A stretch of DNA of 64,000 bases from a virus. Taxonomy: Duplodnaviria; Caudoviricetes. Every line of letters begins with the position of its first letter. Positions within the stretch are counted from its first letter, which is position 1. The notes below the pieces were generated by a model. The model saw nothing but the letters and a program-made list of their open reading frames with translations, did no database searches and had not been told where the DNA came from. Both the position numbers and the translations under genes were made by a program. The stretch is taken from the IMG/VR virus record IMGVR_UViG_3300010429_001449. One strand, given 5' to 3'. This document shows, piece after piece, positions 4,519 to 47,977 of the stretch.

Positions 4519-4556
4519 AAGCTCCTTTCAAACTGAGAAGTGTTCTGCCTGCTCTT

Positions 4557-4584
4557 AGTATAACAGCGCGGAAAGATTTGTCAA
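4557..4584 (-). promoter_or_regulatory. Sigma70-type promoter TTGACA-N16-TATACT
   Basis: Member of a 16-copy motif family; upstream of lemA. Confidence 0.8.
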
Positions 4585-4589
4585 GACAT

Positions 4590-5141: not shown

Positions 5142-5151
5142 GGCAGTCTCC

Positions 5152-5700: not shown

Positions 5701-5715
5701 CTGTCCTGTTCCTGT

Positions 5716-6804: not shown

Positions 6805-7074
6805 AGTCCTTTCGCTTTTTGCAAACGTGCCTTCTGCGATGATAGCACGGTCTTACTTGCCGCCTTAGTCTGCGGCGCAACTAGCTGAATCAATTTCCCG
6901 CCGCACTCAGCCTTATGCTTTTGCAGCCACTGACCAGAGATCGGTACTGTTCCCCAACTAAGACCTTCGCGCATCTCAAAAGATGGACATAAACATTTCC
7001 AACCTTTTTCGCAACACCAAACACCATCACCGTAACAGCGAGTATTCTTGGCGGCCCTTCTAACAGAAACGGAA

Positions 7075-7656
7075 TTAGACATTTGTTGTCCTTCTTAGTT
7101 GTTTTATCACACGCGCCAGCCATATCTTCAGCCAAGAGTGTGTCTCGACTGAGAGAGCGCGTTCAAGCGGTGGCAATGATCTTGGATCGTCCAAGTAACT
7201 TAAACCCGACGCCGCAGAGTCACGTACACCAGTATCTGGATGCGAAAGAAGTCCTTCTAGGAACGCACGACGTTCCTCACGCAAGGGGATGTTCTTATCG
7301 TCAAAACCGAGCGACTTGACACATTCACATGTCCAATCATGACCTTCATAACAGCCTCTGCACACGCTACTAACAATACGATACGTCGGGTCCAATCCAG
7401 CCACGCGCTCGTTGAGGGCGCGGAAGCTAAGAGGCTCCTGCATTGATTCTTCTGCCGCCTCCATTGCTGCCTCTGCCGGACGATGCAAGCCGGTAATCAC
7501 CTTGCCTTCCTCGTACTCCACTTTGCCGGGGAACCATTTTGCTTCCCAAGCTCTGGCAGCGGCAACGCAAGTTACTTCGTACACAACGACGTAGCTTCCG
7601 TCATCGCGCCGCCACTTCCAACCATCTCCTGTCAGTTCCCACTTTTCCAGCATCAA
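7075..7656 (-). CDS. Hypothetical protein with C-terminal HEAT-like repeat
   Basis: LSHPDTGVRDSAASGL...SLPPLERAL. Confidence 0.55.
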   Translation of the reverse strand: MMLEKWELTGDGWKWRRDDGSYVVVYEVTCVAAARAWEAKWFPGKVEYEEGKVITGLHRPAEAAMEAAEESMQEPLSFRALNERVAGLDPTYRIVSSVCRGCYEGHDWTCECVKSLGFDDKNIPLREERRAFLEGLLSHPDTGVRDSAASGLSYLDDPRSLPPLERALSVETHSWLKIWLARVIKQLRRTTNV

Positions 7657-7750
7657 AATTCTACCCCAAAGACCTCGTCACCAATCGCCATAGCGGACCA
7701 CCCAAGAGGTTCCTTGGTTTGCTTGTTTCTACTGCCGTAGAATTCCATGA

Positions 7751-8113
7751 TCATCTCCCTGAACGCACGGCAAAGACTCGAGTGTAGACCGAGTGTGTGC
7801 GAGGGATGTAGTCCTCGTTGCCATAGTAGAAATCGAAGGCCCAGGCCGACGAGTCGTCCCGATGCTCAGCCCACACCCACCAACCAGTTGTCTTGAACGA
7901 CGGGTTAATATGCCGGGTAACAATTCCGGGTTGGTACAAGGTCTTTAACTCCTCACGAGTAGGCATTCGCCAGTTACCGCCCCAAGGGGCGCGAGATTCA
8001 ACCCAGGCAACGGCCTCGTTATAAGTCGTGGTCCTGTTAGGACCTACGAGCCATTCGAGACCCGTCGTCGTATCAAGGATCACTCCGCCTTCTTGCTCTT
8101 GAAATCTACACAC
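7751..8113 (-). CDS. DUF1566 (Lcl C-terminal-like) domain protein
   Basis: DTTTGLEW...WRMPTREELKTL...RVFAVR; GTG start after AAGGGAGG. Confidence 0.8.
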   Translation of the reverse strand: MCRFQEQEGGVILDTTTGLEWLVGPNRTTTYNEAVAWVESRAPWGGNWRMPTREELKTLYQPGIVTRHINPSFKTTGWWVWAEHRDDSSAWAFDFYYGNEDYIPRTHSVYTRVFAVRSGR

Positions 8114-9071
8114 CGTCGCCTCCCTTACGGCGCACGGCGAACACTCGTAGGCAGTCCGAAATCGTGCGACTGCTGTAGTTCTCGCTGCCAAAGAGGAAGT
8201 GGAAAAGCCAGGCCGACGAGGCATCCTTCGGTTCCGTCCAGACCAACCAGCCCGTCGTCTTGAACACCGTGTCCGTGTTCCGGTCTCCCTTGCCCTTCTG
8301 GTACAACTCCTTCAACTGTTCTCGCGTCGGCATCTGCCATCCGCCGCCAGCAACAGTCAGATTCTTTACCCACGATTCGGCGGTAGCGTAGTCCGTTTCT
8401 TCATCCGGACCAACCAACCATTCGAGACCTGTCTGTGTATCAAGGATTACTCCGCATCCTTGCTCTTGAAATCTACCCTTACGGCGCACCGCGAAAACTC
8501 GATCATTTAACCCGTTATCGTGGTAGAGGTCGTACTCCTTGTCACGGTAAAAATCATAGACCCATGCTTTATCCGCACCGTCCGGCTCTGCCCATACGCT
8601 ACGCCCTTGTATGCCAAACAACGGATCAATATTCCACGCAGTTCCTTCCATGTGCAACTTCCTAAGCTGCATCCGCGTCGGCATACACCAGCCGCCACCA
8701 GCAGAAGTCAGACTCTTCACCCACGACACAGCCTTGGGGTAGTCCGTGTCTTCATCAGGCCCAACCAACCATTCAAGACCGGTTTTCTTGTCGGTGATAA
8801 TTCCATCAGCATTCTGTGAAAATCGAGGTTCTGGTTCGGAAGCCGAGACTGCTTTCGCCCGCTCGGCCTTTCTCTTTTTCATCGCCGCCCGAAGAACAGT
8901 CTCGGCCTCTATGCCTCCAATGGACATCTGCCAGAGATGCGAAATCTCCCTCGGATTCCAGCCGTCGGCGACAAGACGATCCCACACGGGCTTGATTGCA
9001 GCATTGAATTCGTCCAAGGCCGCGAGACCTTCATCGCCGTAGGCGTTGTAGTCGTTGTAAAAGGATTTCAT
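8106..9071 (-). CDS. Protein with two tandem DUF1566 domains
   Basis: Two copies of D..TGLEWLVGPD...GGGW.MPT...RVFAVR. Confidence 0.85.
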   Translation of the reverse strand: MKSFYNDYNAYGDEGLAALDEFNAAIKPVWDRLVADGWNPREISHLWQMSIGGIEAETVLRAAMKKRKAERAKAVSASEPEPRFSQNADGIITDKKTGLEWLVGPDEDTDYPKAVSWVKSLTSAGGGWCMPTRMQLRKLHMEGTAWNIDPLFGIQGRSVWAEPDGADKAWVYDFYRDKEYDLYHDNGLNDRVFAVRRKGRFQEQGCGVILDTQTGLEWLVGPDEETDYATAESWVKNLTVAGGGWQMPTREQLKELYQKGKGDRNTDTVFKTTGWLVWTEPKDASSAWLFHFLFGSENYSSRTISDCLRVFAVRRKGGDGV

Positions 9072-9089
9072 TTGCTTACCTCTACCCCT

Positions 9090-9117
9090 AGTATAACGGA
9101 GTCGGCGCGATTGTCAA
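9090..9117 (-). promoter_or_regulatory. Promoter TTGACA-N16-TATACT
   Basis: Motif family copy. Confidence 0.8.
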
Positions 9118-9155
9118 GGCGTTTTTTCGGAGATTCGTTTATTTTTCTGCGGGGG

Positions 9156-9231
9156 TGGAGCTGCAGGAGGGATTTGAACCCTCGGCCTCGTCCTTACCAA
9201 GGACGCGCTCTGCCGACTGAGCTACTGCAGC
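9156..9231 (-). tRNA. tRNA-Thr(GGT)
   Basis: Cloverleaf, anticodon arm CGTCC-TTGGTAA-GGACG, CCA end. Confidence 0.95.
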
Positions 9232-9232
9232 G

Positions 9233-9793
9233 TTATTCTTCGCGTAGAGGCGGAATATCGTGGGACGCGCTCATCTTGGGAATCAGTTTCTTTGTTCCCA
9301 AGCGGACCTCAAACTGCGCGGCGAAAGGCGGATAGTCATGGTGTTTGTGGAAGAACGCGAGAAGGGGAAGGACGTGATCGACCAAACAGGGGTGTTTCGT
9401 GACTTGGACGTGTCTCGTGACGTAAAGAATTTCGGGAAGAAGCTGTGTGCTAACTAGGGTGTGGCACATCGCCTCGTCTTGACCGTAGTACGTCGCGCCG
9501 AGCACACGAACGCTGCGGAGAACGTACTGCGCCAGGGACAGGCGCAGATTGATATGCGAGATTGATGCGTGTTGCGGCATCTCCGCCGTCAGTTGGGCGG
9601 CGGCCAACATTTGTTGACAAACCTCGTTGACCACCTCATCGAGTAGCGGTTCCTCATACAACCAATGGACGAGCACGTTTCTGGCCGCCCGAGCGTCTGC
9701 GGGCAACAAAGATAATGCTGCCGCCGCTGCCGCATTAACGCCGGTCATAACGTCGCTGAGAGGCAATAAAGGCGACTGTTCGCTCTTTTTCAT
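9233..9793 (-). CDS. Hypothetical protein, paralog of 9955-10521
   Basis: Shared C-terminal LL.(F/Y)F.KH....PF.A motif; start trimmed off the tRNA overlap. Confidence 0.6.
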   Translation of the reverse strand: MKKSEQSPLLPLSDVMTGVNAAAAAALSLLPADARAARNVLVHWLYEEPLLDEVVNEVCQQMLAAAQLTAEMPQHASISHINLRLSLAQYVLRSVRVLGATYYGQDEAMCHTLVSTQLLPEILYVTRHVQVTKHPCLVDHVLPLLAFFHKHHDYPPFAAQFEVRLGTKKLIPKMSASHDIPPLREE

Positions 9794-9850
9794 GTCCTCG
9801 TCCTTTCGCCCACTCAGCATAGCACAAACAACAACCACGTCCAACAAAGA

Positions 9851-9938
9851 TGGAGCCGCCGGAGGGAGTTGAACCCTCAATGTGTCGTTAAACACGCCGA
9901 CTTACAAGGCCGGTGCTCTGCCCTTGAGCGACGGCGGC
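9851..9938 (-). tRNA. tRNA-Thr(TGT) with long variable arm
   Basis: CCGGC-CTTGTAA-GTCGG, extra GTGT..ACAC hairpin, CCA. Confidence 0.9.
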
Positions 9939-9954
9939 TGAATCAAAAGACTTG

Positions 9955-10521
9955 TCAACCCTGTCCACCCCGCTTTTTATCCAATTCAGCAACAAACGGA
10001 GAGTGGTTGCGGTGTTTCCAGAAGTAGACCAGCAGAGCAGACAGCTTTTCCGCAGGATAACCGTAACGACTTGCTCTGGCCACGATCCAATCAACTTCCA
10101 ACATACGAGACAACAACCCAAGAGCGCAGCAAAGAAGGTGTTGTTGCATTGCTTGTTGCTCAATCGAAGACATTGAATCGCCGGACCACAAGAACTGTCT
10201 ATGATATTTCACGGCAAGGAGTGCTGTGTGAATGAAATTCTCAACGAGAACTGTGTACGTATCGTTGGCGTAATTCGCGGCAGCATCCTTCACGCATCTA
10301 CGCTGATACAAAGCCGCCTCCACTACAGCCAACGGCAGACTCTCGGTTGTGTGGCCGCCCCGCAAGACATAAACTGCAAGCACGTCTGGATTATCCGTGT
10401 CTTGCAGAGAAGACCTGTTCGCAGCGAAAAGGAACGAGAGCGCGGCGCACTCCAACAGGCGCACGCCGTCATCGATTTCCTTCTCTGACAACAACACCTG
10501 GTTTAGTACCGAGTCGGCCAT
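9955..10521 (-). CDS. Hypothetical protein, paralog of 9233-9793
   Basis: MADSVLN start after GAGG; shared C-terminal motif. Confidence 0.6.
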   Translation of the reverse strand: MADSVLNQVLLSEKEIDDGVRLLECAALSFLFAANRSSLQDTDNPDVLAVYVLRGGHTTESLPLAVVEAALYQRRCVKDAAANYANDTYTVLVENFIHTALLAVKYHRQFLWSGDSMSSIEQQAMQQHLLCCALGLLSRMLEVDWIVARASRYGYPAEKLSALLVYFWKHRNHSPFVAELDKKRGGQG

Positions 10522-10538: not shown

Positions 10539-10614
10539 TGGAGCCGCCGGTGGGAATTGCACCCACAACCTCCGCTTTACGAAAGCGGCGCACAGCTATT
10601 CGTGCTTCGGCGGC
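10539..10614 (-). tRNA. tRNA-Thr(CGT)
   Basis: CCGCT-TTCGTAA-AGCGG; T-loop TGCAATT; CCA. Confidence 0.85.
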
Positions 10615-38587: not shown

Positions 38588-40099
38588 TTAAAAAGGACAA
38601 TCGGCCTCGTCGAACTCCGTGTCCGCGTCGGCTATTGTCGCTGCTGGTTCCACAGAAAAGTCCGCTGACTGATCTCCGTCGTAAGAGACAAGAGTACCGA
38701 ACGGCGGACGATACGAACCAAACTTCAGCGCGGCATTACGATCCGTACGCTTCACAATCCACAGGAGGGGAAGCGGCGGCTCTTTCTTAGGGAACGTCCC
38801 CATCAAGTCTGTGAAGTAACAAATTCCCGCATACTGTCCGTAACCTTCCTTCGCCAATCGAGCAAAGGGCGGGCGGAAGTCCGTGCCGCCGCGCCCGCCC
38901 CACCTGTACGGAACTTCGTCGTGGGGGCTGAGAACTTGGTCATAGACTATGGCGGCATCACAGCCTATCAACCGAATCTTCGTGATGCCTTTGGACGTAA
39001 GAATACCTCTGGCCTCCGAGACGAACTCGCGTAGATGTTCGTCGGAAATGGAGCCGGACGTATCAATCATCACAATCAACTGCTTGCCTTCGTCGAAAAG
39101 ATCGGGCAGATAAACGCCGCGACTCCAAACGCCGTCGTGCAAAACAGGCATCAAACGACGGTCGGGAATGCCGAAGTCGTAGTCATCCCGGACGATTTCA
39201 GATACGAATGTTGTAAAGAATTGCTGCCACGGGATGACAGGATTCAACAAGTCCTTAATCAAAGACTCCATAGAGCCGGGACACCTTCCGTGTGCGGCGG
39301 CCAACTGAGCGGCGCGAACCAGTTTCTTTTGCCACGCCCTCTCCAACGACTCTTCAGTTTCCGGCGATCCATTCTTGTAGTCCGCGCCGGACGCCGCAGC
39401 GTCCGACTGGTCGTTCCCGCCTTCGCCAGGGGTCTGACTCTGCTCCCCGGCTTGATCATCACCGTCCTGCGAAGACCCGTCTGGAGCCTTTTGAGCCGCG
39501 TCTTGATCTTCGTCTTGATCCTCGTCACCGCTGTCCTTGCCAGCAGACGAATCGTCGGTATCGTCATCGTCAGGGCGATTGTCCTTCTCCGACGGCGTGC
39601 GGCCATGTTCTCTATCATTCTTCTTGAAATCGCCAGTACCGTCGCCGGGCGTTAAGTCTTGAAGCGGGCATCGTGGGTTATCCGGAAGGAGACTGAATAC
39701 GCGCTCGACGGTCATTCCGGCATACTGAGGATCACAAGGCCACGCGGCAGGAACAGAAAAACCAGCGCGGTCTTCCGACACCTTGTCCTCGGCCAACATC
39801 AGATTGACTACGTGATCACAAGCGACGTTCCACTTCTTGAGATCGCGCCCCATTCTACGGCGTCCGAAAACGTGCCTTAGCGCTACGTGCAGTACTTCGT
39901 GGGCCAAAAGGGTTTGACGCTCGGAATCGTTCAATTGCATCGCGTAGGCGGGGTTTACGGCCATTTCCTTAGCCGTTACGCCCGCCGTGGGAACCCGGTG
40001 GGTCAGACGGATGGGTAGGTCGGCCAAGAGATAGCCGTAAAAAGGCCGCGAGAGCAACAGACGTGTCCGCGCCCGCTTTATGGCCTCAGACAACCGCAT
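38588..40099 (-). CDS. DUF2201-type metallopeptidase plus vWA protein
   Basis: LAHEVLH; WNVACD; acidic linker; IDTSGSI; GRGGTDF; YFTD. Confidence 0.88.
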   Translation of the reverse strand: MRLSEAIKRARTRLLLSRPFYGYLLADLPIRLTHRVPTAGVTAKEMAVNPAYAMQLNDSERQTLLAHEVLHVALRHVFGRRRMGRDLKKWNVACDHVVNLMLAEDKVSEDRAGFSVPAAWPCDPQYAGMTVERVFSLLPDNPRCPLQDLTPGDGTGDFKKNDREHGRTPSEKDNRPDDDDTDDSSAGKDSGDEDQDEDQDAAQKAPDGSSQDGDDQAGEQSQTPGEGGNDQSDAAASGADYKNGSPETEESLERAWQKKLVRAAQLAAAHGRCPGSMESLIKDLLNPVIPWQQFFTTFVSEIVRDDYDFGIPDRRLMPVLHDGVWSRGVYLPDLFDEGKQLIVMIDTSGSISDEHLREFVSEARGILTSKGITKIRLIGCDAAIVYDQVLSPHDEVPYRWGGRGGTDFRPPFARLAKEGYGQYAGICYFTDLMGTFPKKEPPLPLLWIVKRTDRNAALKFGSYRPPFGTLVSYDGDQSADFSVEPAATIADADTEFDEADCPF

Positions 40100-41402
40100 C
40101 CTCGTCCTCCTCAGCGTCAGTCAGGACTTTGTCGGTCGGCGAGAGGTACTGCTCGGAACGAACGAGAGCGCCGTACTTCTTCTCGAAGGCCAGATAATCG
40201 TCGTTGTCGTAAGCCAGCATCGCGCCCTGCGCACGAAAGAAGGGCATTACGAATATGTCGCAGATACCGCAGGCCGCTATCTCAGGGGAGCGATCCATAC
40301 GCTGCACAGCATACTTGCAGTAGTTGGCGAACGCGGAAATGATTTTTTCCCGCGCTGTCTGCCGACGTACCACGCTCGCCAACGCGCCTGCAAAAGCATA
40401 CGACACGTCGGCGCGTTTTGGCATTGGGATAGACATAAGGCCGTCCAAGATGACCGCTTCGGGATTGGGCATTTCGCTCATAACGTCGCAAAAGGCGGAA
40501 AACTGCGTTCCCGCGCCCGATCCGACAGAACCGTTTATGAGACTCAAAGCGGCATTAACGTCTCCATTCGTCAAGGAGAGCCAGTCTGACACCGTTTCCC
40601 AACTGCGCGGAGTACAAAAAGCTTTCTTGTGCTTCGCGGGATCAAACTGAAAAAGCAGTTCCGGTTTGAAGGTCAGGAACGATGCGATGCGAAAATCAAC
40701 ACCGATGCGAAGCGCCCACAGCTTCCAGTCTCTCAAAGACGGCATAAGTTCCAAGTGCGTGAAGCGGTTCGCCAAAGCACTGGACATAGGATTGACGATT
40801 GCGCGATCCGTCTCTCGGTTGCCGCTGGCGACGATATAACAGTCGTCGGGAAGATTGTATTCGCCGACATGACCATCCAATACCAATGAGTAAGCCGACG
40901 CCTGTACTGCATTCGGCGCGGCATTCAACTCGTCGAGATGAATGAGATATCCAGGCTTCGTCGGCAGAAAGGACGGATGCCACCATTCGGTCATCCGCGT
41001 AATCTCGTATAACGGCTCTCCAGCGGCATTCAACACAGGTTCGCCGCCTTTATACACAGCAAAGTTGCCCGTGTCATCCTTAACGTTCTTCCCGTCCGCG
41101 TCCAGAACGAACTCGCCGGGCAGCCGTACCAAGGGGGTCTTGCGTTCTTGCGCGACAGGAACGCCGCGAAGGTCAACAGGATTCAACAAGGACATGCGCA
41201 AGTCGATGAAGTTCAGCCGCTCCTCTTTTGCGATCTCGCGCATCAAAGCTGACTTCCCAATACCCGGCGGACCCCACAGATGTGTGGCCCGTCCGCCGCG
41301 CCGCAACTTGCGCGAACGAACGGCAATCTGCATAGAATACTTGACTTCTGCAAACGAAAGCGGCGCTAACTGCACGTCACCGGTACTTGCTGCGGCGGGC
41401 AT
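40086..41402 (-). CDS. MoxR-like AAA+ ATPase
   Basis: Walker A GPPGIGKS; LDELN; ASGN; ALANRF; TPRSW. Confidence 0.9.
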   Translation of the reverse strand: MPAAASTGDVQLAPLSFAEVKYSMQIAVRSRKLRRGGRATHLWGPPGIGKSALMREIAKEERLNFIDLRMSLLNPVDLRGVPVAQERKTPLVRLPGEFVLDADGKNVKDDTGNFAVYKGGEPVLNAAGEPLYEITRMTEWWHPSFLPTKPGYLIHLDELNAAPNAVQASAYSLVLDGHVGEYNLPDDCYIVASGNRETDRAIVNPMSSALANRFTHLELMPSLRDWKLWALRIGVDFRIASFLTFKPELLFQFDPAKHKKAFCTPRSWETVSDWLSLTNGDVNAALSLINGSVGSGAGTQFSAFCDVMSEMPNPEAVILDGLMSIPMPKRADVSYAFAGALASVVRRQTAREKIISAFANYCKYAVQRMDRSPEIAACGICDIFVMPFFRAQGAMLAYDNDDYLAFEKKYGALVRSEQYLSPTDKVLTDAEEDEDAVV

Positions 41403-41447
41403 AGCTGATTCCTCTAAGGTCGGGTTAGCTCGTTTACACCTAATCCT

Positions 41448-41475
41448 AGTATAACAGCGTCGGCCAAAATGTCAA
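41448..41475 (-). promoter_or_regulatory. Promoter TTGACA-N16-TATACT
   Basis: Motif family copy. Confidence 0.8.
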
Positions 41476-42206
41476 GGAAGTTTTATGATGAGTTTCGGGT
41501 TGAACCGGTCGTTGACGGTATGTCCATAGTAACCAAAAGGATTGCACACAACGCGGGTGTTTCCCATTGTGTAATCGCAACTGGAATGAGTGTGTCCGTG
41601 AATCCAGAACATCGGCTGTCTGTCTGCGATAAGTTTCTCCATGTCGCAGAGAAAGAAACAGTTGGTCATACTGTTCTTGAAATATGGAGCAATGCTCTGC
41701 CGCGCCGGAAGATGATGCGTGACAACAATGGTTTTGTCGTCAACAACGTCGTCCAAAAAGGCGATGGCACGCCTATTGTCATCCTCAACCTCGTGCGTGA
41801 AATTGCTGATTTCCGAGAAATCGGCGATATGGTCGCGGAGCGTGGCGCACTGATATGTCCAACGGAACCAGAGAGGCGTTCCGGCGAACTTGTAACCGCC
41901 TATGTCTATGTCAACCGTCGTGTTGTCCAGCACGGTCAATCTTGGACACGCAGCCGCAGTATCACGCAGCGTAGCGCGAACACGAGAAAAGCTGGAAGAA
42001 TAAAAGTCGTGGTTGCCAGGCACATACAAAACGCGAGGGTACCGCGTACAAAGCAGTTCCAAAGAAATGCCTATGCCGCCGGAAACGTGATTGTCCCCCG
42101 CCACGACCAGAAGGTCTACGCCATCTGGATCAAGGCTCTTAACGAACTCAAGTCCCATATCGGGATAGAACTCGAAGTGAAGATCGGACAAGACTTGAAT
42201 GTTCAC
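41472..42206 (-). CDS. Calcineurin-like metallophosphoesterase
   Basis: SDLH, AGD, GNHD, THH, HGHTH. Confidence 0.92.
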   Translation of the reverse strand: MNIQVLSDLHFEFYPDMGLEFVKSLDPDGVDLLVVAGDNHVSGGIGISLELLCTRYPRVLYVPGNHDFYSSSFSRVRATLRDTAAACPRLTVLDNTTVDIDIGGYKFAGTPLWFRWTYQCATLRDHIADFSEISNFTHEVEDDNRRAIAFLDDVVDDKTIVVTHHLPARQSIAPYFKNSMTNCFFLCDMEKLIADRQPMFWIHGHTHSSCDYTMGNTRVVCNPFGYYGHTVNDRFNPKLIIKLP

Positions 42207-43015: not shown

Positions 43016-43090
43016 TGGTGTTCCGGCTTGGATTCGCACCAAGAACCTGCCCCTTATAAGGAGGCTGCTCTACTCTTGAGCTACCGGAAC
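43016..43090 (-). tRNA. tRNA-Ile(TAT)
   Basis: GCCTC-CTTATAA-GGGGC; T-loop TGCGAAT; ACCA. Confidence 0.85.
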
Positions 43091-43094
43091 ATTG

Positions 43095-43168
43095 TGGTGG
43101 CCCCGCCCGGAATCGCGCCGGGACATCCGCCTTATCGGGACGGCGCTCTACTATTGAGCTACAGGGCC
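43095..43168 (-). tRNA. tRNA-Ile(GAT)
   Basis: CCGTC-CCGATAA-GGCGG (C33); T-loop CGCGATT; ACCA. Confidence 0.8.
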
Positions 43169-43795: not shown

Positions 43796-43872
43796 TGGCA
43801 CCCCCGGAAGGACTTGCACCCTCAGTATCTCGGGTAGAAACCGAGTGCCTTATCTGGTTGGGCTACGGGGGC
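43796..43872 (-). tRNA. tRNA-Arg(TCT)
   Basis: CTCGG-TTTCTAC-CCGAG; T-loop TGCAAGT; GCCA. Confidence 0.87.
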
Positions 43873-43885
43873 TACTGCTGCACCT

Positions 43886-43913
43886 AGTATAACAGCGTTG
43901 GGGGAAATGTCAA
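43886..43913 (-). promoter_or_regulatory. Promoter TTGACA-N16-TATACT
   Basis: Motif family copy. Confidence 0.8.
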
Positions 43914-43918
43914 GGCTT

Positions 43919-43956
43919 AAAAAGAATAGGGCCGAAAGATTCTTCCGGCCCTATCT
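43919..43956 (-). terminator. Intrinsic terminator ending the Y RNA array
   Basis: ATAGGGCCGGAAGA-A-TCTTTCGGCCCTAT then TCTTTTT. Confidence 0.8.
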
Positions 43957-43968
43957 TGAGTAAGTGTC

Positions 43969-44037
43969 GGGTTGACGAGGGACGGTCAAGAGTGGTTCAT
44001 GGTTATCATTCATGTACTCCTGACCAGCATTCAACCC
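43969..44037 (-). ncRNA. Y RNA-like unit 1 (minimal, no tRNA module)
   Basis: GGGTTGAATGC...TACAT...CTCGTCAACCC. Confidence 0.8.
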
Positions 44038-44046
44038 AAAGAGATT

Positions 44047-44167
44047 GGTTGACGAGGGGCGCACGAGAGATTAGCAGGATTCGCACCTGCAATTCCCCGA
44101 AGGGAAACTTGCTTGTTAGGCAAGCGCGTTTGCTTTTTCGCCATGTACTCCCGTACTGCATTCAACC
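44047..44167 (-). ncRNA. Y RNA-like unit 2 (Leu-type D, anticodon, long variable and T arms; no acceptor)
   Basis: GGTTGAATGC...TACATGGCGAAA; CTTGC-CTAACAA-GCAAG; GCAGG-TGCGAAT-CCTGC; CTCGTCAACC. Confidence 0.8.
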
Positions 44168-44179
44168 AAAAAGAGGCGA

Positions 44180-44382
44180 GAGGCCGACGAGGGATGCGGA
44201 GTCTAGTTTTCGCGCTCTGCCGCTGAGCTACCCGCCCGAAGAACCCCGCCAGAGGCCCCTACCAGTCGCACACTTGCGGCTGATGTTCGGCGTCCGTTGG
44301 GGAGGAATTGGTGGGCGGGGCAGGAGTCGAACCTGCGACCTCGGCTTCCAATTAGCATGTAAACCCCACTGCATTCGACCTC
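44180..44382 (-). ncRNA. Y RNA-like unit 3 (YrlA-like permutation with internal CCA and long linker)
   Basis: T arm, CCCGCCC-ACCA, about 70-nt linker, GGGCGGG, D arm, all inside GAGGTCG/CGGCCTC. Confidence 0.8.
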
Positions 44383-44404
44383 AAAAATTCGCGGAAAGAA
44401 AGCA

Positions 44405-44557
44405 CAGTCGACGAGGAAATGAGAGACTTGGTTTTTGCTACGCTCCCATAGTGGCGACCGCCGGATTTCCCCGACAGGTCGCCGTTGGTGGGAGCGGCTC
44501 TTTCGAGCATCTACAGATTTACGGTCTGTTGCATGTAATCCCTCTGGCATTCGACTG
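44405..44557 (-). ncRNA. Y RNA-like unit 4 (opened at D arm; internal CCA)
   Basis: ACAGA-CCGTAAA-TCTGT, GAAA hairpin, CGCTCCC-ACCA, linker hairpin, GGGAGCG-TAGC. Confidence 0.75.
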
Positions 44558-44597
44558 AGTTCTCTCTTGCGGAGCCGTAGCCCCGCGAAAAGGATTT

Positions 44598-44719
44598 GGC
44601 TGACGAAGGTGAAGAAACTTTACCGCTTTCGCGGATGGCGGGAATCGCACCCGCAACGTTCTGTTTACGAGACAGATGCTCTGCTATTGAGCTACATGTA
44701 GTTCCTTCGGCATTCAGCC
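44598..44719 (-). ncRNA. Y RNA-like unit 5 (D, anticodon CGT and T arms; no acceptor)
   Basis: TAGCTCAATAGCAGAGC; TCTGT-CTCGTAA-ACAGA; GCGGG-TGCGATT-CCCGC inside GGCTG/CAGCC. Confidence 0.8.
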
Positions 44720-44731
44720 AAAAAGAGGAAA

Positions 44732-44873
44732 GAGACCGACGAGGGTTTTGCAAGTCGTATGTGTTTGACCGCCGCTCTACTACCTGAGCTACTCCCGGCT
44801 TGCGCCAGAGGGCAGGACTTGCACCTGCGACCAGCGGTTGCGATAACATGTAGACCTACAAGCATTCGGTCCC
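44732..44873 (-). ncRNA. Y RNA-like unit 6 (classical YrlA topology)
   Basis: T arm, acceptor closed by a GCAA loop, D arm, anticodon stem ACCGC/GCGGT leading into the Ro stem. Confidence 0.85.
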
Positions 44874-44888
44874 CTTTGTTACAGAAGA

Positions 44889-45008
44889 AGGCTGACGAGG
44901 TATTTGAAGAGACAACTTCAAGCGCCGAAGCGCTTGTTGTAGGGGTCGAACCTACTATCGAGGCTTGCGCCTTGATGGTATCCATGTAGTCCCTTCGGCA
45001 TTCAGCCT
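44889..45008 (-). ncRNA. Y RNA-like unit 7 (T arm between two tetraloop hairpins)
   Basis: GCAA hairpin, GTAGG-TTCGACC-CCTAC, TTCG hairpin, inside AGGCTG/CAGCCT. Confidence 0.78.
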
Positions 45009-45017
45009 AAAGAGATC

Positions 45018-45142
45018 GGGCTGACGAGAAATGACCGCGACGTTCAGAGTATTAGTCTGTTGCCTAGCTATTAGGCTACGTTTCCTTTGGTGGAAATGAT
45101 GGGAGTTGCACCCATAATGTAGTCGCAATCGGCATTCAGCCC
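45018..45142 (-). ncRNA. Y RNA-like unit 8 (opened at variable loop; whole permuted cloverleaf)
   Basis: T arm, CATTTCC-ACCA-AA-GGAAACG, D arm, CAGA-CTAATAC-TCTG, inside GGGCTG/CAGCCC. Confidence 0.8.
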
Positions 45143-45152
45143 AAAGTTGTTA

Positions 45153-45292
45153 GCGGCTGGCCGGGATTCAGGGGACGAGCAATTCAGTTCTCGCCACGGG
45201 GTTTTGTACGTTCATTCATTAAACCCGCTGCTCCCTGTCCCAACGCGCTTCTAAGCTTTCGCTCGCCGCTACTTGCTCCACGCTGCAGCCGC
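45153..45292 (-). ncRNA. Candidate structured ncRNA (copy B), leading the Y array
   Basis: Closing stem GCGGCTG/CAGCCGC; inner GGGAC..GAGCA/TGCTCGTCCC; motifs shared with 11234-11375. Confidence 0.5.
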
Positions 45293-45348
45293 ATTCAATC
45301 TAGCGATGTCAAAGAACAGCACGGCGTCGCTTGCTAGGCGATACCCTT

Positions 45349-45376
45349 AGTATAACAGAACCAAGGGGAATGTCAA
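45349..45376 (-). promoter_or_regulatory. Promoter of the Y RNA array, TTGACA-N16-TATACT
   Basis: Motif family copy. Confidence 0.82.
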
Positions 45377-45408
45377 GGCTTTTTCACAAAAAAATCCCGA
45401 AGTTCGTC

Positions 45409-45484
45409 GACTCTGAGCAAAATATTATGCTTAAAAGTGCGCGAAACTTCACACAGATTTAAGCATAATTTTTTGCCCGGAGTC
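45409..45484. repeat. AT-rich imperfect palindrome
   Basis: Perfect 12-bp arms ATTATGCTTAAA (45424-45435) and TTTAAGCATAAT (45458-45469), extending outward. Confidence 0.7.
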
Positions 45485-45521
45485 AAAAGCGGAAGGGGCG
45501 GGGGCTGCCTGCCCCTTCCGC
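45485..45521 (-). terminator. Intrinsic terminator after the Ro60 gene
   Basis: GCGGAAGGGGC...GCCCCTTCCGC-TTTT. Confidence 0.8.
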
Positions 45522-45531
45522 GAGCGTCCGA

Positions 45532-47304
45532 TTACTCGGACGCTTCTTCTGCTTCATCGGGCGCTGCGTCGCTTGCGCTCTTGCAAGCGGCGGCCAGATC
45601 GATGGCTTCGATCTCGCGCACCCACACGGATACGTCCTTCTCCGGCTTTGCCGTCGCCGTCTTCGTCTCCGTGCCCGGCTTTACGCCGTTGTTCAAGAAG
45701 TCGATGATGACCGACCATACAGCGTTGGACCATCCGCCGATGTTCAGAATATCGGCGTCGCCTTCCGGAGCCTGCGTACTGTCGTTGGCCGCAAGGTCCA
45801 AACAGACCATCCGTGCGCCTGGACAACGCGACCGCAGCGCATTGAACTGCGCCATGAGTTCCGTGCCGCCATTACGCACGGTACGTCCCCTAGAATCAAC
45901 CCACGACTCGTTGTCAGAAATGATGACAACGCGATTGATCTTCTGTTGCGCACGGTTGACCCGCGCCAGCGGAGCCGAAATGCACGTTCCGCCCCCACCG
46001 GCGTGTCGGATCGCATTAGTAAGCGTCAGAATCGAGTCCCTACGCTCCAACTTGACAGGAAGCACGTCGTTGGCGAACGGCATTACGGTCGATCCCATGT
46101 TCCTCTTGTAGAGGATGGCTGCCAGCAGCGAGGAAATGTCCGCGCACGTAGCCTTCGTCGTGGCCGAGCCACGGTAGCCGGTTACTGGCGCGTCCATCGA
46201 TCCCGACAGGTCTGGCGCAATCAGCAGAGCGCCGTCGATGCCGATCATGTTGCTCGTTGCGAGGTCCATCGCGTCGTGCAGTGCGTCCCGAATAGCTTCC
46301 GGAACTTCGGTGTGGACGAAATCGTAAGCCGTCTTGATCTCGTACGGGAAGGGCTTGACCCTTTCCTGAATCTCCTCCTTGTCCCGGAGCTTCTCCGCGA
46401 TGGCCTTGACAGCCTTCTCATTGCTGAACACGCCTTGACGCTTGTACGTATTCAGATTCTTGAGGGTCTGTCTCCAGCCGCCGCGCAGCGCAAGCTGCCG
46501 CCAATGCTCTTCCTTCAGAGGAAGCGACGACAGGAACTCCCAACGCACTCCCTTCGGAAGCGGGGCCGACTCACCCGCCAGCAATGCGGCCTTGAACGTC
46601 TCGTAGTCGCGGATGCACTTCGGCAGCTTGTCCCAGTCGGGAGCAAGCTCCGGGCGATTCGCGCAGAGCGCCTTGGCCTCACCGAGGGTGCGTGGGCACT
46701 TGCCGATCAAGTAGGCGAAGATAGCCCGTTCCTCTGCCGTGCGCGGCGTCGGGTGAACCATCTTGATTACGTCCGACAGGCTCACCGTGCCTTTGGCCGA
46801 TCCACCGACAGAGTCGCCGAAAAGCTGATCACCCGTGCGGCTCCGCAGCCAGTCACGAATGGCCTTCTTCGGAACCGCGCCAAGCGACTTCCGACCGACC
46901 GCACCGCTACGCATAATTTGCGTGAAGCCGAGCAGCATCTTGCCGTTCGTCACGACGCGACCGAAAGCGCGATTGAACCACGAACGACCGTCTGCGTCCC
47001 GCGAAGTCAGATGGGCAAGCAGGAGCGCCGGAGCGTCCTTCATTCCACCGTTTTCACGAGCGTACACAGCCGTCTTGGCAACGTATTCGGGCGTGTTGAC
47101 CGCAGCCAGGGCCAGCATCTTGGCCAGTTCGTTTTCTCCGCTCTGATAGAACGTTCCGCCCTCCGGAAGCGTTCCAGTCATGGCGAACTGGGCGAGCGCG
47201 TGCTTGTCCGTGAACTTGTAAGCCACTCCCCCTGCTTCGTTGACCGTGTTGGTCGGAGGAGCCGTACGACCTCTCTGCGTCTTAAAAAGCTTCTTCGCTG
47301 GCAT
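45532..47304 (-). CDS. rsr: Ro60/TROVE-domain RNA-binding protein with C-terminal vWA
   Basis: NEAGGVAY; LAQFAMTG; YARENGGMKDAPALL; DVIKMVHP; LKNLNT; DLSGSM; GGGT; SDNESW; IGGWS. Confidence 0.93.
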   Translation of the reverse strand: MPAKKLFKTQRGRTAPPTNTVNEAGGVAYKFTDKHALAQFAMTGTLPEGGTFYQSGENELAKMLALAAVNTPEYVAKTAVYARENGGMKDAPALLLAHLTSRDADGRSWFNRAFGRVVTNGKMLLGFTQIMRSGAVGRKSLGAVPKKAIRDWLRSRTGDQLFGDSVGGSAKGTVSLSDVIKMVHPTPRTAEERAIFAYLIGKCPRTLGEAKALCANRPELAPDWDKLPKCIRDYETFKAALLAGESAPLPKGVRWEFLSSLPLKEEHWRQLALRGGWRQTLKNLNTYKRQGVFSNEKAVKAIAEKLRDKEEIQERVKPFPYEIKTAYDFVHTEVPEAIRDALHDAMDLATSNMIGIDGALLIAPDLSGSMDAPVTGYRGSATTKATCADISSLLAAILYKRNMGSTVMPFANDVLPVKLERRDSILTLTNAIRHAGGGGTCISAPLARVNRAQQKINRVVIISDNESWVDSRGRTVRNGGTELMAQFNALRSRCPGARMVCLDLAANDSTQAPEGDADILNIGGWSNAVWSVIIDFLNNGVKPGTETKTATAKPEKDVSVWVREIEAIDLAAACKSASDAAPDEAEEASE

Positions 47305-47382
47305 TTCATGCTCCTTTCTAAGGGAAAGCCTTAGCGAATTAGGAGCCGCCGCGTTGTGCGGCGTTCCATAAGCAACACCCTT

Positions 47383-47410
47383 AGTATAACGGAGCGTATA
47401 GAAATGTCAA
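47383..47410 (-). promoter_or_regulatory. Promoter of the Ro60 gene, TTGACA-N16-TATACT
   Basis: Motif family copy. Confidence 0.82.
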
Positions 47411-47977
47411 GCGAATTATTGAGAATTTCTCGGATAGAGGGCGTCTAGGAGCCGGGCGGGACGACGTGGATTTCGGCTTCAATCGCGGCTTCGACTTCGA
47501 CCCACAGCAACCGTCCGACGACAGCGGCGGAGTACCCTTCCAGAATGTTGTTGACGATCAGTTCATCCACCAGAAAGGAGAGAACTGTTCTGTTTGCACC
47601 GCCGCCACGCGCAAAGGCTCCGCTGCCTACGCCTACGTTTCTCGTTGCAGATGTGAATGCCATTTCTCGACCCGTCCTTCGTTTCGTTTCAACACACGCG
47701 CCCGCAGGGGGCGCGAAAACAAACGATTAAAAGGCAATTGACCGCCTTTGCAACCTTCATAGCATCTGGTTTAACACACGGGGCGGCGGTTGTCAAGCAC
47801 TATAATTCAGCGTCTTGCCCGTTCAGAAGTTCCGCGATTACTTTTCGGCAAAGAACGCAGGTTATAGGCTTCTTGGCAGTGACACACTCAATACCCAGCG
47901 GCCACGACTGTCCGCAAGCAGTAGCAGCATAGACAGGTGTGATACCGTCGTGTACTTCCAGCCAAGCTACGTGTGTC

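What the first reader, a model, noticed from the sequence alone, without database searches (positions are those of the whole stretch)
43919..47410. Ro60 gene with a dedicated operon of eight Y-RNA-like units
Seen: downstream of the TROVE/vWA gene lies a 1.4-kb non-coding unit with its own promoter (45349-45376) and terminator (43919-43956). It holds eight tandem units of 69-203 nt. Each begins NNYGAAUGC, has UACAU about 10 nt later and ends YUCGUCRNN. The terminal helices covary: GGGUUG/CAACCC, GGUUG/CAACC, GAGGUCG/CGGCCUC, CAGUCG/CGACUG, GGCUG/CAGCC, GGGACCG/CGGUCUC, AGGCUG/CAGCCU, GGGCUG/CAGCCC. Known: bacterial and some phage Ro60 (Rsr) genes sit next to Y RNAs, typically one or a few, with a GNCGAA-type Ro-binding helix. 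Inference: one Ro protein serves a library of eight interchangeable RNA adaptors with a constant handle and variable payload. These could be decoys for host tRNA nucleases or tethers to different partners.
Basis: partly seen in the sequence, partly recalled or inferred. Interest (0 to 1): 0.95.

Follow-up and report, generated by a model that had tools for sequence, protein, structure and literature searches.

The report
Eight-unit Y RNA array beside phage Ro60
A large uncultured phage carries, just after its Ro60 gene, a separately transcribed row of eight small RNAs that share the Ro60-binding stem of bacterial YrlA Y RNAs but carry different, mostly tRNA-like bodies. The same multi-RNA layout is common beside Ro60 genes of bacteria and phages, and standard RNA databases miss most of it.

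Summary
Window 43969-45142 (minus strand) holds eight tandem RNAs of 69-203 nt. Each is closed by the same two-helix handle: P1, GAAUGC loop, P2, UACAU ... CUCGUC, P1'. They lie between a recurrent phage promoter and an intrinsic terminator, downstream of an intact Ro60 gene.

The handle is that of YrlA (Rfam RF02553). A covariance model built here scores all eight at 38.6-62.6 bits; the next best match is 11.8 bits. In bacteria its hits coincide with YrlAs that pass Rfam's threshold. Covariation is strong: 93% of cells pair against 59% when shuffled, and all 17 pairs show compensatory changes.

Two units are canonical YrlA types. The others carry a circularly permuted whole tRNA, tRNA bodies with the handle in place of the acceptor stem, other hairpins, or almost nothing.

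The array is not unique. Of 80 bacterial rsr loci, 78 carry 1-8 units (median 4; Mesorhizobium has rtcR, rsr, six units, rtcB). Related phages carry up to 13. Rfam recognises one unit per bacterial locus and none here. This scan found similar arrays before on other DNA.

Ro60 binding and the adaptor or decoy function remain inferred. Verdict: a new variant of a known system, at the upper end of a largely uncatalogued range.

The parts
47383..47410 (-). Promoter of the Ro60 gene (TTGACA-16-TATACT)
   Evidence: Consensus scan, 11 of 12. One of 14 copies of the same phage promoter word in the window, 0 expected.
45532..47304 (-). Ro60 (Rsr, TROVE + vWA) gene, 590 aa, intact
   Evidence: Pfam vWA_Ro60, 52.8 bits against a cut-off of 27.7. 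Matches phage phiLo Ro60 9KOP/9L5Y (residues 18-227) and, along its whole length, D. radiodurans Rsr 2NVO and RO60 9NEN. 38.8% identical to the Ro60 of Myxococcus phage Mx1.
45484..45519 (-). Probable terminator of the Ro60 gene (9-bp G+C stem, then GCUUUUG)
   Evidence: Read from the sequence. Not listed by the scan, because the T run has only 4 T. Inference.
45410..45476 (-). AT-rich palindromic element between the two transcription units, repeated in the genome
   Evidence: Five copies in the 268.8-kb record at 84-91% identity. DNA contigs break here. Role unknown.
45349..45376 (-). Promoter of the RNA array
   Evidence: An RNA-library contig of run X3 ends at 45340, where DNA contigs run on (weak hint of the transcript start).
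45150..45342 (-). Leader of about 190 nt, probably holding a decayed ninth unit (GAAUGC at 45296, CUCGUC at 45179, helices lost)
   Evidence: Not matched by model R2 with filters off. Folding is no better than shuffles, z = 0.29.
45018..45142 (-). U1: handle plus a whole tRNA-like body circularly permuted at the variable loop (T arm, acceptor stem closed by an ACCAA loop, D arm, anticodon arm with AAU)
   Evidence: R2 58.1 bits. ARAGORN, at a relaxed threshold, reads the re-joined body as a 72-nt tRNA-Ile(aat) ending in CCA. Partial Rfam tRNA match, 23.7 bits.
44889..45008 (-). U2: handle plus two small hairpins (the second capped GCAA), T arm and a 7-bp UUCG-capped stem
   Evidence: R2 46.1 bits. 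Fold. T-arm motif.
44732..44873 (-). U3: canonical YrlA layout (T arm, stem-loop, D arm)
   Evidence: Rfam YrlA 35 bits, full model, below the cut-off of 69. R2 45.8 bits. T then D order.
44595..44722 (-). U4: handle in place of the acceptor stem of a tRNA body (D arm, anticodon arm with CGU loop, T arm), plus an extra GAAA hairpin
   Evidence: Rfam tRNA 50 bits over model positions 5-66 only. R2 48.2 bits. D then T order.
44405..44557 (-). U5: handle plus an anticodon-arm-like hairpin, a GAAA hairpin and a long hairpin; no T or D arm
   Evidence: R2 42.2 bits. Fold. 27 of 33 bases match the anticodon and variable arm of the phage's tRNA-Tyr(GUA) (lead only).
44180..44382 (-). U6: canonical YrlA layout with a 76-nt insertion
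   Evidence: Rfam YrlA 52.4 bits, E = 1.8e-10, below the cut-off of 69. R2 38.6 bits.
44045..44169 (-). U7: handle in place of the acceptor stem of a class-II-like tRNA body (anticodon loop AAC, long variable arm, T arm)
   Evidence: R2 56.1 bits. ARAGORN calls 44065-44150 tRNA-Val(aac). Rfam tRNA 39.5 bits, with three mispairs in the 'acceptor' and no CCA.
43969..44037 (-). U8: minimal unit, handle plus a small apical hairpin
   Evidence: R2 62.6 bits, the best match. Fold.
43919..43955 (-). Intrinsic terminator of the array
   Evidence: 14-bp stem with 7 G-C pairs, then CTTTTT. RNA-library contigs begin at 43946 (X2) and 43965 (X3).

Best explanation
The stretch is a phage operon of eight Y RNAs of the YrlA family. 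It is transcribed from its own sigma-70-type phage promoter as one precursor of about 1.4 kb that ends at an intrinsic terminator. Each unit is closed by the same Ro60-binding module: helix P1 ending in YGA, internal loop AUGC(N) opposite N3-5CUYG, helix P2, then UACAU. This module would dock the RNA on the phage's own Ro60 ring. The upper part differs in every unit. Two are canonical YrlA tRNA elbows. One is a whole permuted tRNA. Two are tRNA bodies in which the handle takes the place of the acceptor stem. One has an anticodon-arm-like hairpin, one has a T arm with extra hairpins, and one is bare. By analogy with characterised Y RNAs, the bodies would decide what the Ro60 particle touches: exoribonucleases such as PNPase, tRNA-handling enzymes, or damaged RNAs. 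They may also gate Ro60's cavity. The phage would thus make a set of Ro60 particles during infection. Shown here: the anatomy, the homology of the handle to YrlA, the covariation, the co-occurrence with Ro60, and the presence of the array in RNA libraries. Inferred: Ro60 binding, cutting into single RNAs, and the partners.
For: 1. Handle identity. The Rfam YrlA consensus (CGAAUGC...CUAC...CUUGUCG) aligns to U6, U3 and U4 over the full model. Model R2, built only from phage units, hits exactly the RNAs that pass Rfam's YrlA threshold in 7 of 8 bacterial rsr loci tested, for example L222 7613-7742 against RF02553 7614-7744.
2. Structure. On 79 units from 15 loci, 93.1% of cells pair against 58.6% when shuffled. 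All 17 pairs show double changes. The covariation score is 0.824 against 0.206 (0 of 500 shuffles), and slid registers reach at most 0.152.
3. Specificity. The eight units score 38.6-62.6 bits and the next match 11.8 bits. All 79 phage hits and all 280 bacterial hits lie on the Ro60 strand.
4. Link to Ro60. A motif scan of IMG/VR that used no protein information gave 36 stretches that the model confirmed. Ro60 is encoded in 10 of these stretches and elsewhere on the contig of 12 more. None of the 44 stretches the model rejected holds Ro60.
5. Transcription unit. Promoter and terminator were found. Contigs of two metatranscriptome studies cover the array without a mismatch and cross unit borders. 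Their outer ends lie at 45340 and at 43946/43965.
6. Ro60 is intact and matches solved Ro60 and Rsr structures.
7. Published background. Rsr binds YrlA and YrlB, and the binding motif is GNCGAAN0-1G (PMC4201824). Phage phiLo Ro60 binds two Y-like RNAs and forms a complex with host PNPase (PMC12135203).
Against: No binding, end-mapping or partner data exist for this phage. No unit reaches Rfam's YrlA gathering score (best 52.4 against 69). In five units the C of the published GNCGAA motif is U, with a compensating A opposite, and its effect on Ro60 binding is unknown. Units also lie far from Ro60 inside tRNA clusters: 24 kb away in this genome and 11 kb away in Mx1. Three phage records rated complete carry units but no detectable Ro60, so the handle may not always need a phage Ro60. 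The RNA evidence comes from assembled contigs, which cannot show strand, ends, level or processing, and RNA libraries can contain DNA.
Confidence: 0.72

Rival explanations
1. Decoy or sponge array. The tRNA-like bodies serve mainly as baits that soak up host tRNA-targeting defence nucleases or other tRNA-binding proteins. Ro60 only caps and stabilises them, or hands the bound enzyme or damaged bait to an exonuclease.
For: Five of the eight bodies display tRNA parts that such enzymes read. U1, U4 and U7 have full anticodon arms (AAU, CGU, AAC). U5 has an arm that matches the anticodon and variable arm of the phage tRNA-Tyr(GUA) at 27 of 33 bases, with C in place of U33. The phage invests heavily in tRNA supply and repair: 44 tRNAs, two RNA-ligase-family genes and a CCA-adding enzyme. 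In bacteria the same rsr-plus-units module sits in the RtcR/RtcB RNA repair operon, which responds to damaged tRNAs (PMC7790460).
Against: Three units (U2, U3, U6) show only the tRNA elbow and one (U8) shows nothing, so anticodon baiting cannot explain the whole set. The bodies are not close copies of the phage's or any identified host tRNA. The same arrays occur in bacterial chromosomes, where a decoy against the cell's own defences is less obvious. No nuclease target is identified.
Confidence: 0.15
2. The shared stem is a general processing and stability cassette for small phage and bacterial RNAs, for example a clamp that stops exonucleases and defines cleavage sites. It works without Ro60, and its nearness to Ro60 reflects shared regulation only.
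For: Units occur inside tRNA clusters far from Ro60. Three phage records rated 100% complete have units but no Ro60 at E <= 1e-5. Spacers are short pyrimidine-rich single strands, as expected for processing sites.
Against: The invariant letters sit in the internal loop and the helix ends (GAAUGC, UACAU, CUYGUC), not merely in a stable stem. They equal the motif shown to be needed for Rsr binding (PMC4201824). Co-occurrence with Ro60 is strong (22 of 36 contigs, many of them fragments). In 78 of 80 bacterial rsr loci the units are present, mostly starting within about 100 nt after the rsr stop. Hosts may supply Ro60 to the Ro60-less phages.
Confidence: 0.08
3. Some units are unusual tRNA genes, permuted or split, that mature into chargeable tRNAs. 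The handle would be a removable processing helix.
For: The re-joined body of U1 is a 72-nt cloverleaf with a 7-bp acceptor stem (one C-A mismatch) whose closing loop reads ACCA. M. smegmatis YrlA is cut by RNase P and receives CCA in vivo (PMC4201824). The phage encodes a CCA-adding enzyme.
Against: ARAGORN accepts U1 only at a relaxed threshold. The anticodons AAU and AAC begin with A34. Only one unit has this layout. U4 and U7 have no acceptor stem or CCA at all. The phage already has 44 ordinary tRNAs that all encode CCA.
Confidence: 0.04
4. The repeats are not RNA genes. They would be protein-coding sequence or DNA-level repeats such as protein binding sites.
For: Mechanical ORFs of 97-200 aa cross the array.
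Against: These ORFs match no Pfam family. The conservation pattern is compensatory base pairing around unit-specific sequence, strictly on one strand. The units match RNA models. RNA libraries hold the stretch.
Confidence: 0.01

Closest known systems
YrlA and YrlB of the Salmonella Typhimurium rsr-yrlBA-rtcBA operon, and the YrlA family (Rfam RF02553; Chen et al. 2014, PMC4201824)
   Same: Same Ro60-binding stem (CGAAUGC ... YUAY ... CUUGUCG). Same strand as rsr and next to it. Modular build: handle plus effector domain. U3 and U6 have the same T arm, stem-loop, D arm order. Bacterial relatives of this phage's Ro60 keep the rtcR / rsr / units / rtcB layout.
   Different: Eight units instead of two. 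An own sigma-70-type promoter and terminator instead of sigma-54/RtcR control. No RtcB in the phage record. Six units have bodies outside the YrlA definition. No unit passes Rfam's threshold.
Thermus phage phiLo Ro60 with Yrl1 and Yrl2 (PMC12135203; PDB 9KOP, 9L5Y)
   Same: A phage-encoded Ro60 with phage-encoded Y-like RNAs next to the gene. Binding was shown there, together with a ternary complex with host PNPase. The proteins are homologous (E = 4.5e-20).
   Different: Two RNAs there, upstream and without tRNA-like bodies. Here there are eight downstream (ten in the genome), mostly tRNA-like, with the YrlA-type handle.
Deinococcus radiodurans Rsr-Yrn1-PNPase machine (RYPER)
   Same: It provides the mechanistic model used here: the Y RNA stem binds Ro60, the other module tethers an exoribonuclease, and the Y RNA can also gate Ro60.
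   Different: Chen et al. consider the Yrn1 handle and tRNA-like part a separate lineage from YrlA. Only two to four RNAs. No evidence here for PNPase as partner.
[quoted passage not shown]
   Same: A Y RNA whose closed acceptor-like stem can be opened by RNase P and receive CCA. U1 here has a 7-bp acceptor-like stem closed by a loop reading ACCA.
   Different: U1 also keeps an anticodon arm, so the handle sits at the variable-loop position rather than replacing the anticodon stem. Model R2 found nothing beside the Ro60 genes of Mycobacterium phage Myrna or Streptomyces phage Bmoc, so their handles differ.
Myxococcus phage Mx1 (OR576727), the closest cultured phage
   Same: Ro60 38.8% identical. 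Similar neighbourhood of tRNAs, calcineurin-like phosphoesterase, vWA and SLOG proteins. Two R2 units.
   Different: Only two units, 11 kb upstream of Ro60 inside the tRNA cluster and not annotated; one lies under a 'hypothetical protein' CDS.

Membership tests
YrlA Y RNA (Rfam RF02553; Chen et al. 2014) | 5' strand motif GNCGAAN0-1G in the terminal bulged helix (Ro60 binding site) | tested here: met
   All eight units have YGAAUG. U5 and U6 match exactly. U1, U2, U4, U7 and U8 have U for C, with A opposite. U3 has A for the first G, with U opposite. Across the family that pair is C-G in 38 units and U-A in 26.
YrlA Y RNA (Rfam RF02553; Chen et al. 2014) | Conserved YUAY after the second helix | tested here: met
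   UACAU follows P2 in all eight units, as CUACAU, UUACAU or GUACAU. The Rfam consensus CUAc aligns to it.
YrlA Y RNA (Rfam RF02553; Chen et al. 2014) | tRNA-like effector domain in the order T arm, acceptor-like stem-loop, D arm | tested here: not met
   Met by U3 and U6 only. U4 has D before T. U1, U2 and U7 have a T arm without the canonical D motif in that order. U5 and U8 have neither. As a set, the array is not eight YrlAs.
YrlA Y RNA (Rfam RF02553; Chen et al. 2014) | Rfam gathering score (69 bits) | tested here: not met
   Best scores are 52.4 (U6), 35.0 (U3) and 21.7 (U4). There is no YrlA match at gathering level in the window.
YrlA Y RNA (Rfam RF02553; Chen et al. 2014) | Encoded within about 4 kb of the Ro60 gene, on the same strand | tested here: met
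   The array begins about 160 nt after the Ro60 stop codon, on the same strand.
YrlA Y RNA (Rfam RF02553; Chen et al. 2014) | Handle homologous to that of certified YrlAs | tested here: met
   R2 hits coincide with RF02553 matches above threshold in 7 of 8 bacterial rsr loci tested: L161, L176, L188, L190, L195, L215 and L222.
YrlA Y RNA (Rfam RF02553; Chen et al. 2014) | Bound and stabilised by Ro60 in vivo | not testable with these tools
   Needs co-immunoprecipitation or gel shift.
Ro60 / Rsr (TROVE + vWA ring protein) | Ro60-type vWA domain | tested here: met
   PF25045, 52.8 bits against a cut-off of 27.7, residues 361-536.
Ro60 / Rsr (TROVE + vWA ring protein) | Full-length similarity to solved Ro60 proteins, including the HEAT-repeat (TROVE) part | tested here: met
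   2NVO Rsr: residues 20-536 align to 27-529, E = 7.5e-16. 9NEN RO60: 21-536 to 17-533. 9KOP phiLo: 18-227. The Pfam TROVE model itself was not among the matches at E <= 0.001.
Ro60 / Rsr (TROVE + vWA ring protein) | Ring fold with an RNA-binding outer surface | not tested
   No structure prediction was run.
tRNA gene (for the ARAGORN call at 44065-44150 and the Rfam tRNA matches in U4 and U7) | 7-bp acceptor stem with free 5' and 3' ends and a CCA end, as in all 22 tRNAs of the window | tested here: not met
   U7 has three mispairs in the 'acceptor' and no CCA. U4 matches model positions 5-66 only. In both, the ends continue into P2 of the handle.
RtcR-regulated RNA repair operon (rsr-Y RNAs-rtcB) | rtcB next to rsr and RtcR/sigma-54 control | tested here: not met
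   No RtcB in the 268.8-kb record, which is 77% complete. The promoters are of sigma-70 type. The feature is met in a bacterial relative, Mesorhizobium sp. WSM4311: rtcR, rsr, six units, rtcB.

The most novel reading that the evidence does not exclude
Ro60 works in both bacteria and phages with a combinatorial library of Y RNAs. Each Y RNA displays a different piece of the tRNA shape (elbow only, anticodon arm only, whole L with closed or missing acceptor end). Each Ro60 particle is thereby aimed at a different tRNA-handling or tRNA-cleaving enzyme, or at a different class of damaged tRNA. The phage has uncoupled this library from the RtcR stress switch and expresses it constitutively from its own promoter, as a counter-measure in the tRNA-centred conflict with its host.
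Probability: 0.15. Interest if true: 0.85.

Novelty: new variant of a known kind. Interest (0 to 1): 0.6.

Why it matters
What the tRNA-like domain of bacterial Y RNAs binds is still unknown (bioRxiv 10.1101/312249 calls it an 'unknown effector'). Work so far has dealt with one or two Y RNAs per organism. The data here show that one Ro60 subfamily is usually accompanied by about four handle-sharing RNAs, and in phages by up to thirteen. Only the canonical unit is visible to Rfam.

The bodies form a natural dissection series of the tRNA fold: elbow, anticodon arm, permuted whole tRNA, and bare handle. This makes partner hunting directly testable through pull-downs with individual units. It can be done in tractable organisms that carry the same arrays (Mesorhizobium, Labrys, Methylocystis, Lysobacter, Myxococcus phage Mx1).

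The finding also matters for annotation. These RNAs are currently missed, called as false tRNAs (tRNA-Val(aac) here), or covered by 'hypothetical protein' CDSs (Mx1).

Tried and rejected
- blastn of the locus against 50,697 phage records gave no match.
- Rfam at gathering level found only tRNAs in the window.
- MAFFT alignments of whole or short units (A1-A3) misaligned the 3' strand of P2 and were not used for statistics. A 4-sequence seed (A4) with a hand-written structure gave model R1, which was iterated to R2.
- My first regex and helix scanners were too loose: 91 hits in the genome, mostly noise. They were replaced by the covariance model.
- R2 found nothing beside the Ro60 genes of Streptomyces phage Bmoc, Mycobacterium phage Myrna and a 635-kb uncultured phage. 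Rfam YrlA was also below threshold there. The handle model is specific to this Ro60 subfamily, and I make no claim about those phages.
- The 190-nt leader is not a unit and is not unusually structured.
- The bodies are not recent copies of the phage's own tRNAs. The best tRNA for U4 by local score is Lys(CUU), not Thr, so I dropped the idea that U4 derives from tRNA-Thr(CGU). The U5 to tRNA-Tyr and U7 to tRNA-Val resemblances are weak leads only.
- The RNA-library contigs cannot show processing into single units. Their internal breaks do not follow unit borders. Parts of the 9-kb stretch without RNA cover are not evidence of silence.
- The supplementary tables of Chen et al. 2014 and the two Wolin-lab reviews are not held. 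I could therefore not read the largest number of YrlAs per locus reported there.
- No protein-RNA docking tool is available, and no complex prediction was attempted.

Full report
**Where it lies.** The window is bases 161158-225157 of a 268.8-kb IMG/VR phage record, 55.5% G+C and rated 77% complete. The record carries 44 tRNA genes. The finding lies on the minus strand.

- The reverse strand of 43800-47500 shows a 590-aa ORF (45532-47304), a G+C hairpin with a short T run, an AT-rich palindrome, a promoter, about 190 nt of leader, eight tandem units and a strong terminator.
- GAAUGC followed 8-10 nt later by UACAU occurs eight times on this strand and nowhere else in the window on either strand. 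Each is paired with a YUCGUC further on.
- Each unit folded alone gives the same frame: terminal helix P1, an asymmetric internal loop, a second helix P2, then a variable top.
- In the ten units of this genome, 159 of 163 pair cells are standard pairs.
- The promoter (45376-45349) and terminator (43955-43925) are found by the scans, and nothing comparable lies inside the array on that strand.
- The promoter word TTGACA-N16-TATACTA occurs 14 times in the window, always on the minus strand, with none expected. It also precedes the Ro60 gene and the tRNA-Arg gene that follows the array. The Ro60 gene and the array are therefore separate transcription units of the same promoter class.

**What the units are.**
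- The ORF is a Ro60. It matches Pfam vWA_Ro60 above the cut-off, the N-terminal half of Thermus phage phiLo Ro60, and D. radiodurans Rsr and eukaryotic RO60 along its whole length.
- With permissive thresholds, Rfam's YrlA model aligns over its whole length to U6 (52.4 bits), U3 (35.0) and U4 (21.7). All are below the gathering score of 69.
- That alignment shows the constant part of the units to be YrlA's Ro60-binding stem: CGAAUGC, a 7-9-bp helix, CUAC, and on the way back CUUGUCG.
- Chen et al. (PMC4201824) define the binding site as GNCGAAN0-1G and note a conserved YUAY after the second helix. Both are present here. In five units the C is replaced by U, with a compensating A opposite.

**A model of the handle.**
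- Seventeen IMG/VR loci encode Ro60 proteins 34-45% identical to this one.
- MAFFT could not align the two strands of P2 consistently, so I seeded a covariance model with four short units and a hand-written structure (R1). I searched the loci and rebuilt the model from the 41 matches (R2).
- R2 finds all eight window units (E from 3.5e-11 to 1e-5) and two more units outside the window, in the tRNA-Pro cluster at genome 230592-231203.
- It finds 67 units in 14 of the 17 related loci. All 79 matches lie on the Ro60 strand.
- With filters off, the eight units score 38.6-62.6 bits and the next best match in 4.5 kb scores 11.8 bits. The leader is not a unit.
- On the 79-unit alignment, 93.1% of cells pair against 58.6% after shuffling. 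All 17 pairs show changes on both sides. The covariation score is 0.824 against 0.206 (0 of 500 shuffles), and sliding the register drops it to 0.15 or less. The alignment was fitted to the model, which favours pairing, but the slid-register control and the unit-by-unit folds agree.

**The array is typical of its family.** Counts within 10 kb of Ro60 in the related phages run from 0 to 11:

| Locus | Units |
|---|---|
| L022 | 11, in 2.1 kb directly after Ro60 |
| L020 | 8 |
| L015 | 7 |
| L019, L016 | 6 each |

- A motif scan of IMG/VR that used no protein information found further arrays of 13, 8 and 7 units.
- The closest bacterial Ro60 genes are as similar to this one (40-45%) as the phage ones.
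- In those 80 bacterial loci R2 finds 280 units, all on the rsr strand and mostly starting right after the rsr stop. Of the 80 loci, 78 have at least one unit. The median is 4 and the maximum 8.
- In eight of these loci tested with Rfam, seven have exactly one unit above the YrlA threshold, and that unit coincides with an R2 hit. This anchors the handle to bona fide YrlA. It also shows that the remaining units are invisible to Rfam.
- In Mesorhizobium sp. WSM4311 the layout is rtcR (divergent), rsr, six units, rtcB. This is the Salmonella rsr-yrlBA-rtcBA RNA repair operon with six RNAs instead of two.
Eight (ten in the genome) is the top of the bacterial range and the upper part of the phage range.
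- Earlier follow-ups of this scan report similar arrays on other DNA.
- I found no paper describing such arrays in the held library. Chen et al. report 355 YrlAs in 276 genomes. Their supplementary tables and the later reviews are not held.

**Link to Ro60.**
- Of the 36 IMG/VR stretches confirmed by R2 after the protein-blind scan, 10 contain a Ro60 gene. None of the 44 rejected stretches of similar length does.
- A search of the whole contigs adds 12 more, giving 22 of 36. Most of the rest are small fragments.
- Three records rated complete carry one or two units but no Ro60. The association is therefore strong but not absolute. A host Ro60 or a very divergent protein may serve there.

**The variable bodies**:

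| Unit | Body |
|---|---|
| U3, U6 | Canonical YrlA order: T arm, stem-loop, D arm. U6 has a 76-nt insertion. |
| U1 | The same three elements followed by an anticodon arm. The acceptor-like stem is closed by a loop reading ACCAA. |
| U4, U7 | tRNA bodies in the normal order, with P2 of the handle where the acceptor stem should be. U7 has a long variable arm. |
| U2 | Two small hairpins (the second capped GCAA), a T arm and a 7-bp UUCG hairpin. |
| U5 | No T or D arm. An anticodon-arm-like hairpin and two other hairpins. |
| U8 | Little more than the handle. |

- When the two halves of the U1 body are re-joined, ARAGORN reads a 72-nt tRNA-Ile(aat) ending in CCA, though only at a relaxed threshold. 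U1 is thus a whole tRNA shape opened at the variable loop, where the handle emerges.
- U7 is what ARAGORN mis-calls tRNA-Val(aac).
- The first part of U5 matches the anticodon and variable arm of the phage tRNA-Tyr(GUA) at 27 of 33 bases. This is a lead, not a finding.
- The units share only the handle of about 25 nt with one another. They are old and distinct, not a recent amplification.
- Related phages show the same mix of short, T-arm-only and canonical units, usually with one canonical unit each. Some unit types are recognisably orthologous between phages.

**Expression.**
- Two activated-sludge metatranscriptome runs from different studies hold 88% and 79% of the array's sampled words.
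- Their contigs lie on the array without a single differing letter and cross unit borders. In run X3 they cover almost nothing else in 9 kb.
- The outermost ends are at 45340 (about where the promoter predicts the start) and at 43946/43965 (at the terminator), while DNA contigs run on.
- These are assembled contigs. They cannot show strand, ends, amounts or processing, and RNA libraries may hold DNA. I count this as a weak hint of one transcript from promoter to terminator.

**How it most likely works.**
- Shown: the anatomy, the homology of the handle, the covariation, the genomic coupling to Ro60, and the presence in RNA libraries.
- Inferred from Salmonella, M. smegmatis, D. radiodurans and phage phiLo (PMC4201824, PMC12135203, bioRxiv 10.1101/312249): the precursor is cut in the short pyrimidine-rich spacers. 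Each RNA binds the outer face of the Ro60 ring through P1, the loop and P2. The body either tethers Ro60 to a partner or gates its cavity.
- The phage has no RtcB. It does have two RNA-ligase-family genes and a CCA-adding enzyme, consistent with the RNA-repair tool kits described for jumbo phages (PMC7824862).
It explains the anticodon-bearing units but not the elbow-only or bare ones, nor the arrays in bacterial chromosomes.

**Verdict.** This is a real and well-defined RNA operon. Its units are members (U3, U6) or handle-sharing variants (the other six) of the YrlA Y RNA family. It is a new variant of a known system rather than a new kind. The size of the array is at the upper end of a widespread but largely uncatalogued pattern.

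Noticed in passing
outside the window: genome G000:C1:230592-230675 and 231128-231202, minus strand (L002:1624-1707 and 2160-2234): Two further short units (82 and 77 nt) with the same handle lie inside the tRNA-Pro cluster, 24 kb from Ro60 and about 4 kb from a CCA-adding enzyme gene (235195-235557). R2 scores are 56.3 and 57.3 bits.
   Followed up: partly
window 45150-45342 (-): The leader of the array keeps GAUUGAAUGC (45296) and GCUCGUC (45179) 117 nt apart, but neither helix can form. It is probably a decayed ninth unit. Its folding energy is no better than that of shuffles.
   Followed up: partly
window 45410-45476: An AT-rich palindromic element of about 65 bp lies between the Ro60 terminator and the array promoter. 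It occurs five times in the genome (also near 8040, 31760, 66840 and 153050) at 84-91% identity, and metagenome contigs break at it. It may be a bidirectional terminator or a protein binding site.
   Followed up: partly
window, 14 sites from 4556 to 63211, all minus strand: One extended promoter word, TTGACA-N16-TATACTA (mostly preceded by TGT or CGT), recurs 14 times against 0 expected, in front of tRNA clusters and genes. It is a phage promoter class that a host sigma-70-type polymerase could read.
   Followed up: no
window 10539-10614, 43016-43090, 43796-43872, and units U1, U3, U4, U7: Three of the 22 window tRNAs and four Y units have T loops reading UGCRA (G where the universal U55 sits). 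Their D loops lack the usual GG. This is a co-varying variant of the tRNA elbow.
   Followed up: no
window 44065-44150 (-) and 43098-43168 (-): ARAGORN's tRNA-Val(aac) is the body of Y unit U7, not a tRNA gene. Conversely, Rfam finds a tRNA at 43098-43168 (57 bits) that ARAGORN does not list.
   Followed up: partly
L026 (Myxococcus phage Mx1, OR576727): 254-381, 606-711, 1732-2109: Mx1 has two unannotated Y-like units in its tRNA cluster; one lies under the CDS WNM70101.1 'hypothetical protein'. Rfam also finds a tmRNA (117.7 bits) that overlaps the short CDS annotated 'Hef-like endonuclease'.
   Followed up: partly
L222 (Mesorhizobium sp. WSM4311) 4194-10038, and 79 other bacterial loci L146-L225: Bacterial rsr genes of this subfamily are followed by 1-8 handle-bearing units (median 4). 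In L222 six units fill the gap between rsr and rtcB, with rtcR divergent upstream. Rfam sees only one unit per locus.
   Followed up: partly
IMG/VR records behind L068, L082 and L097 (G007, G011, G012): Three phage records rated 100% complete carry one or two R2 units but no Ro60 homologue at E <= 1e-5.
   Followed up: no
window 38588-42206 (-): Downstream of the array and its tRNAs lie a calcineurin-like phosphoesterase, an AAA ATPase and a DUF2201 metallopeptidase/vWA protein. Mx1 has a phosphoesterase and a vWA protein near its Ro60 too.
   Followed up: no
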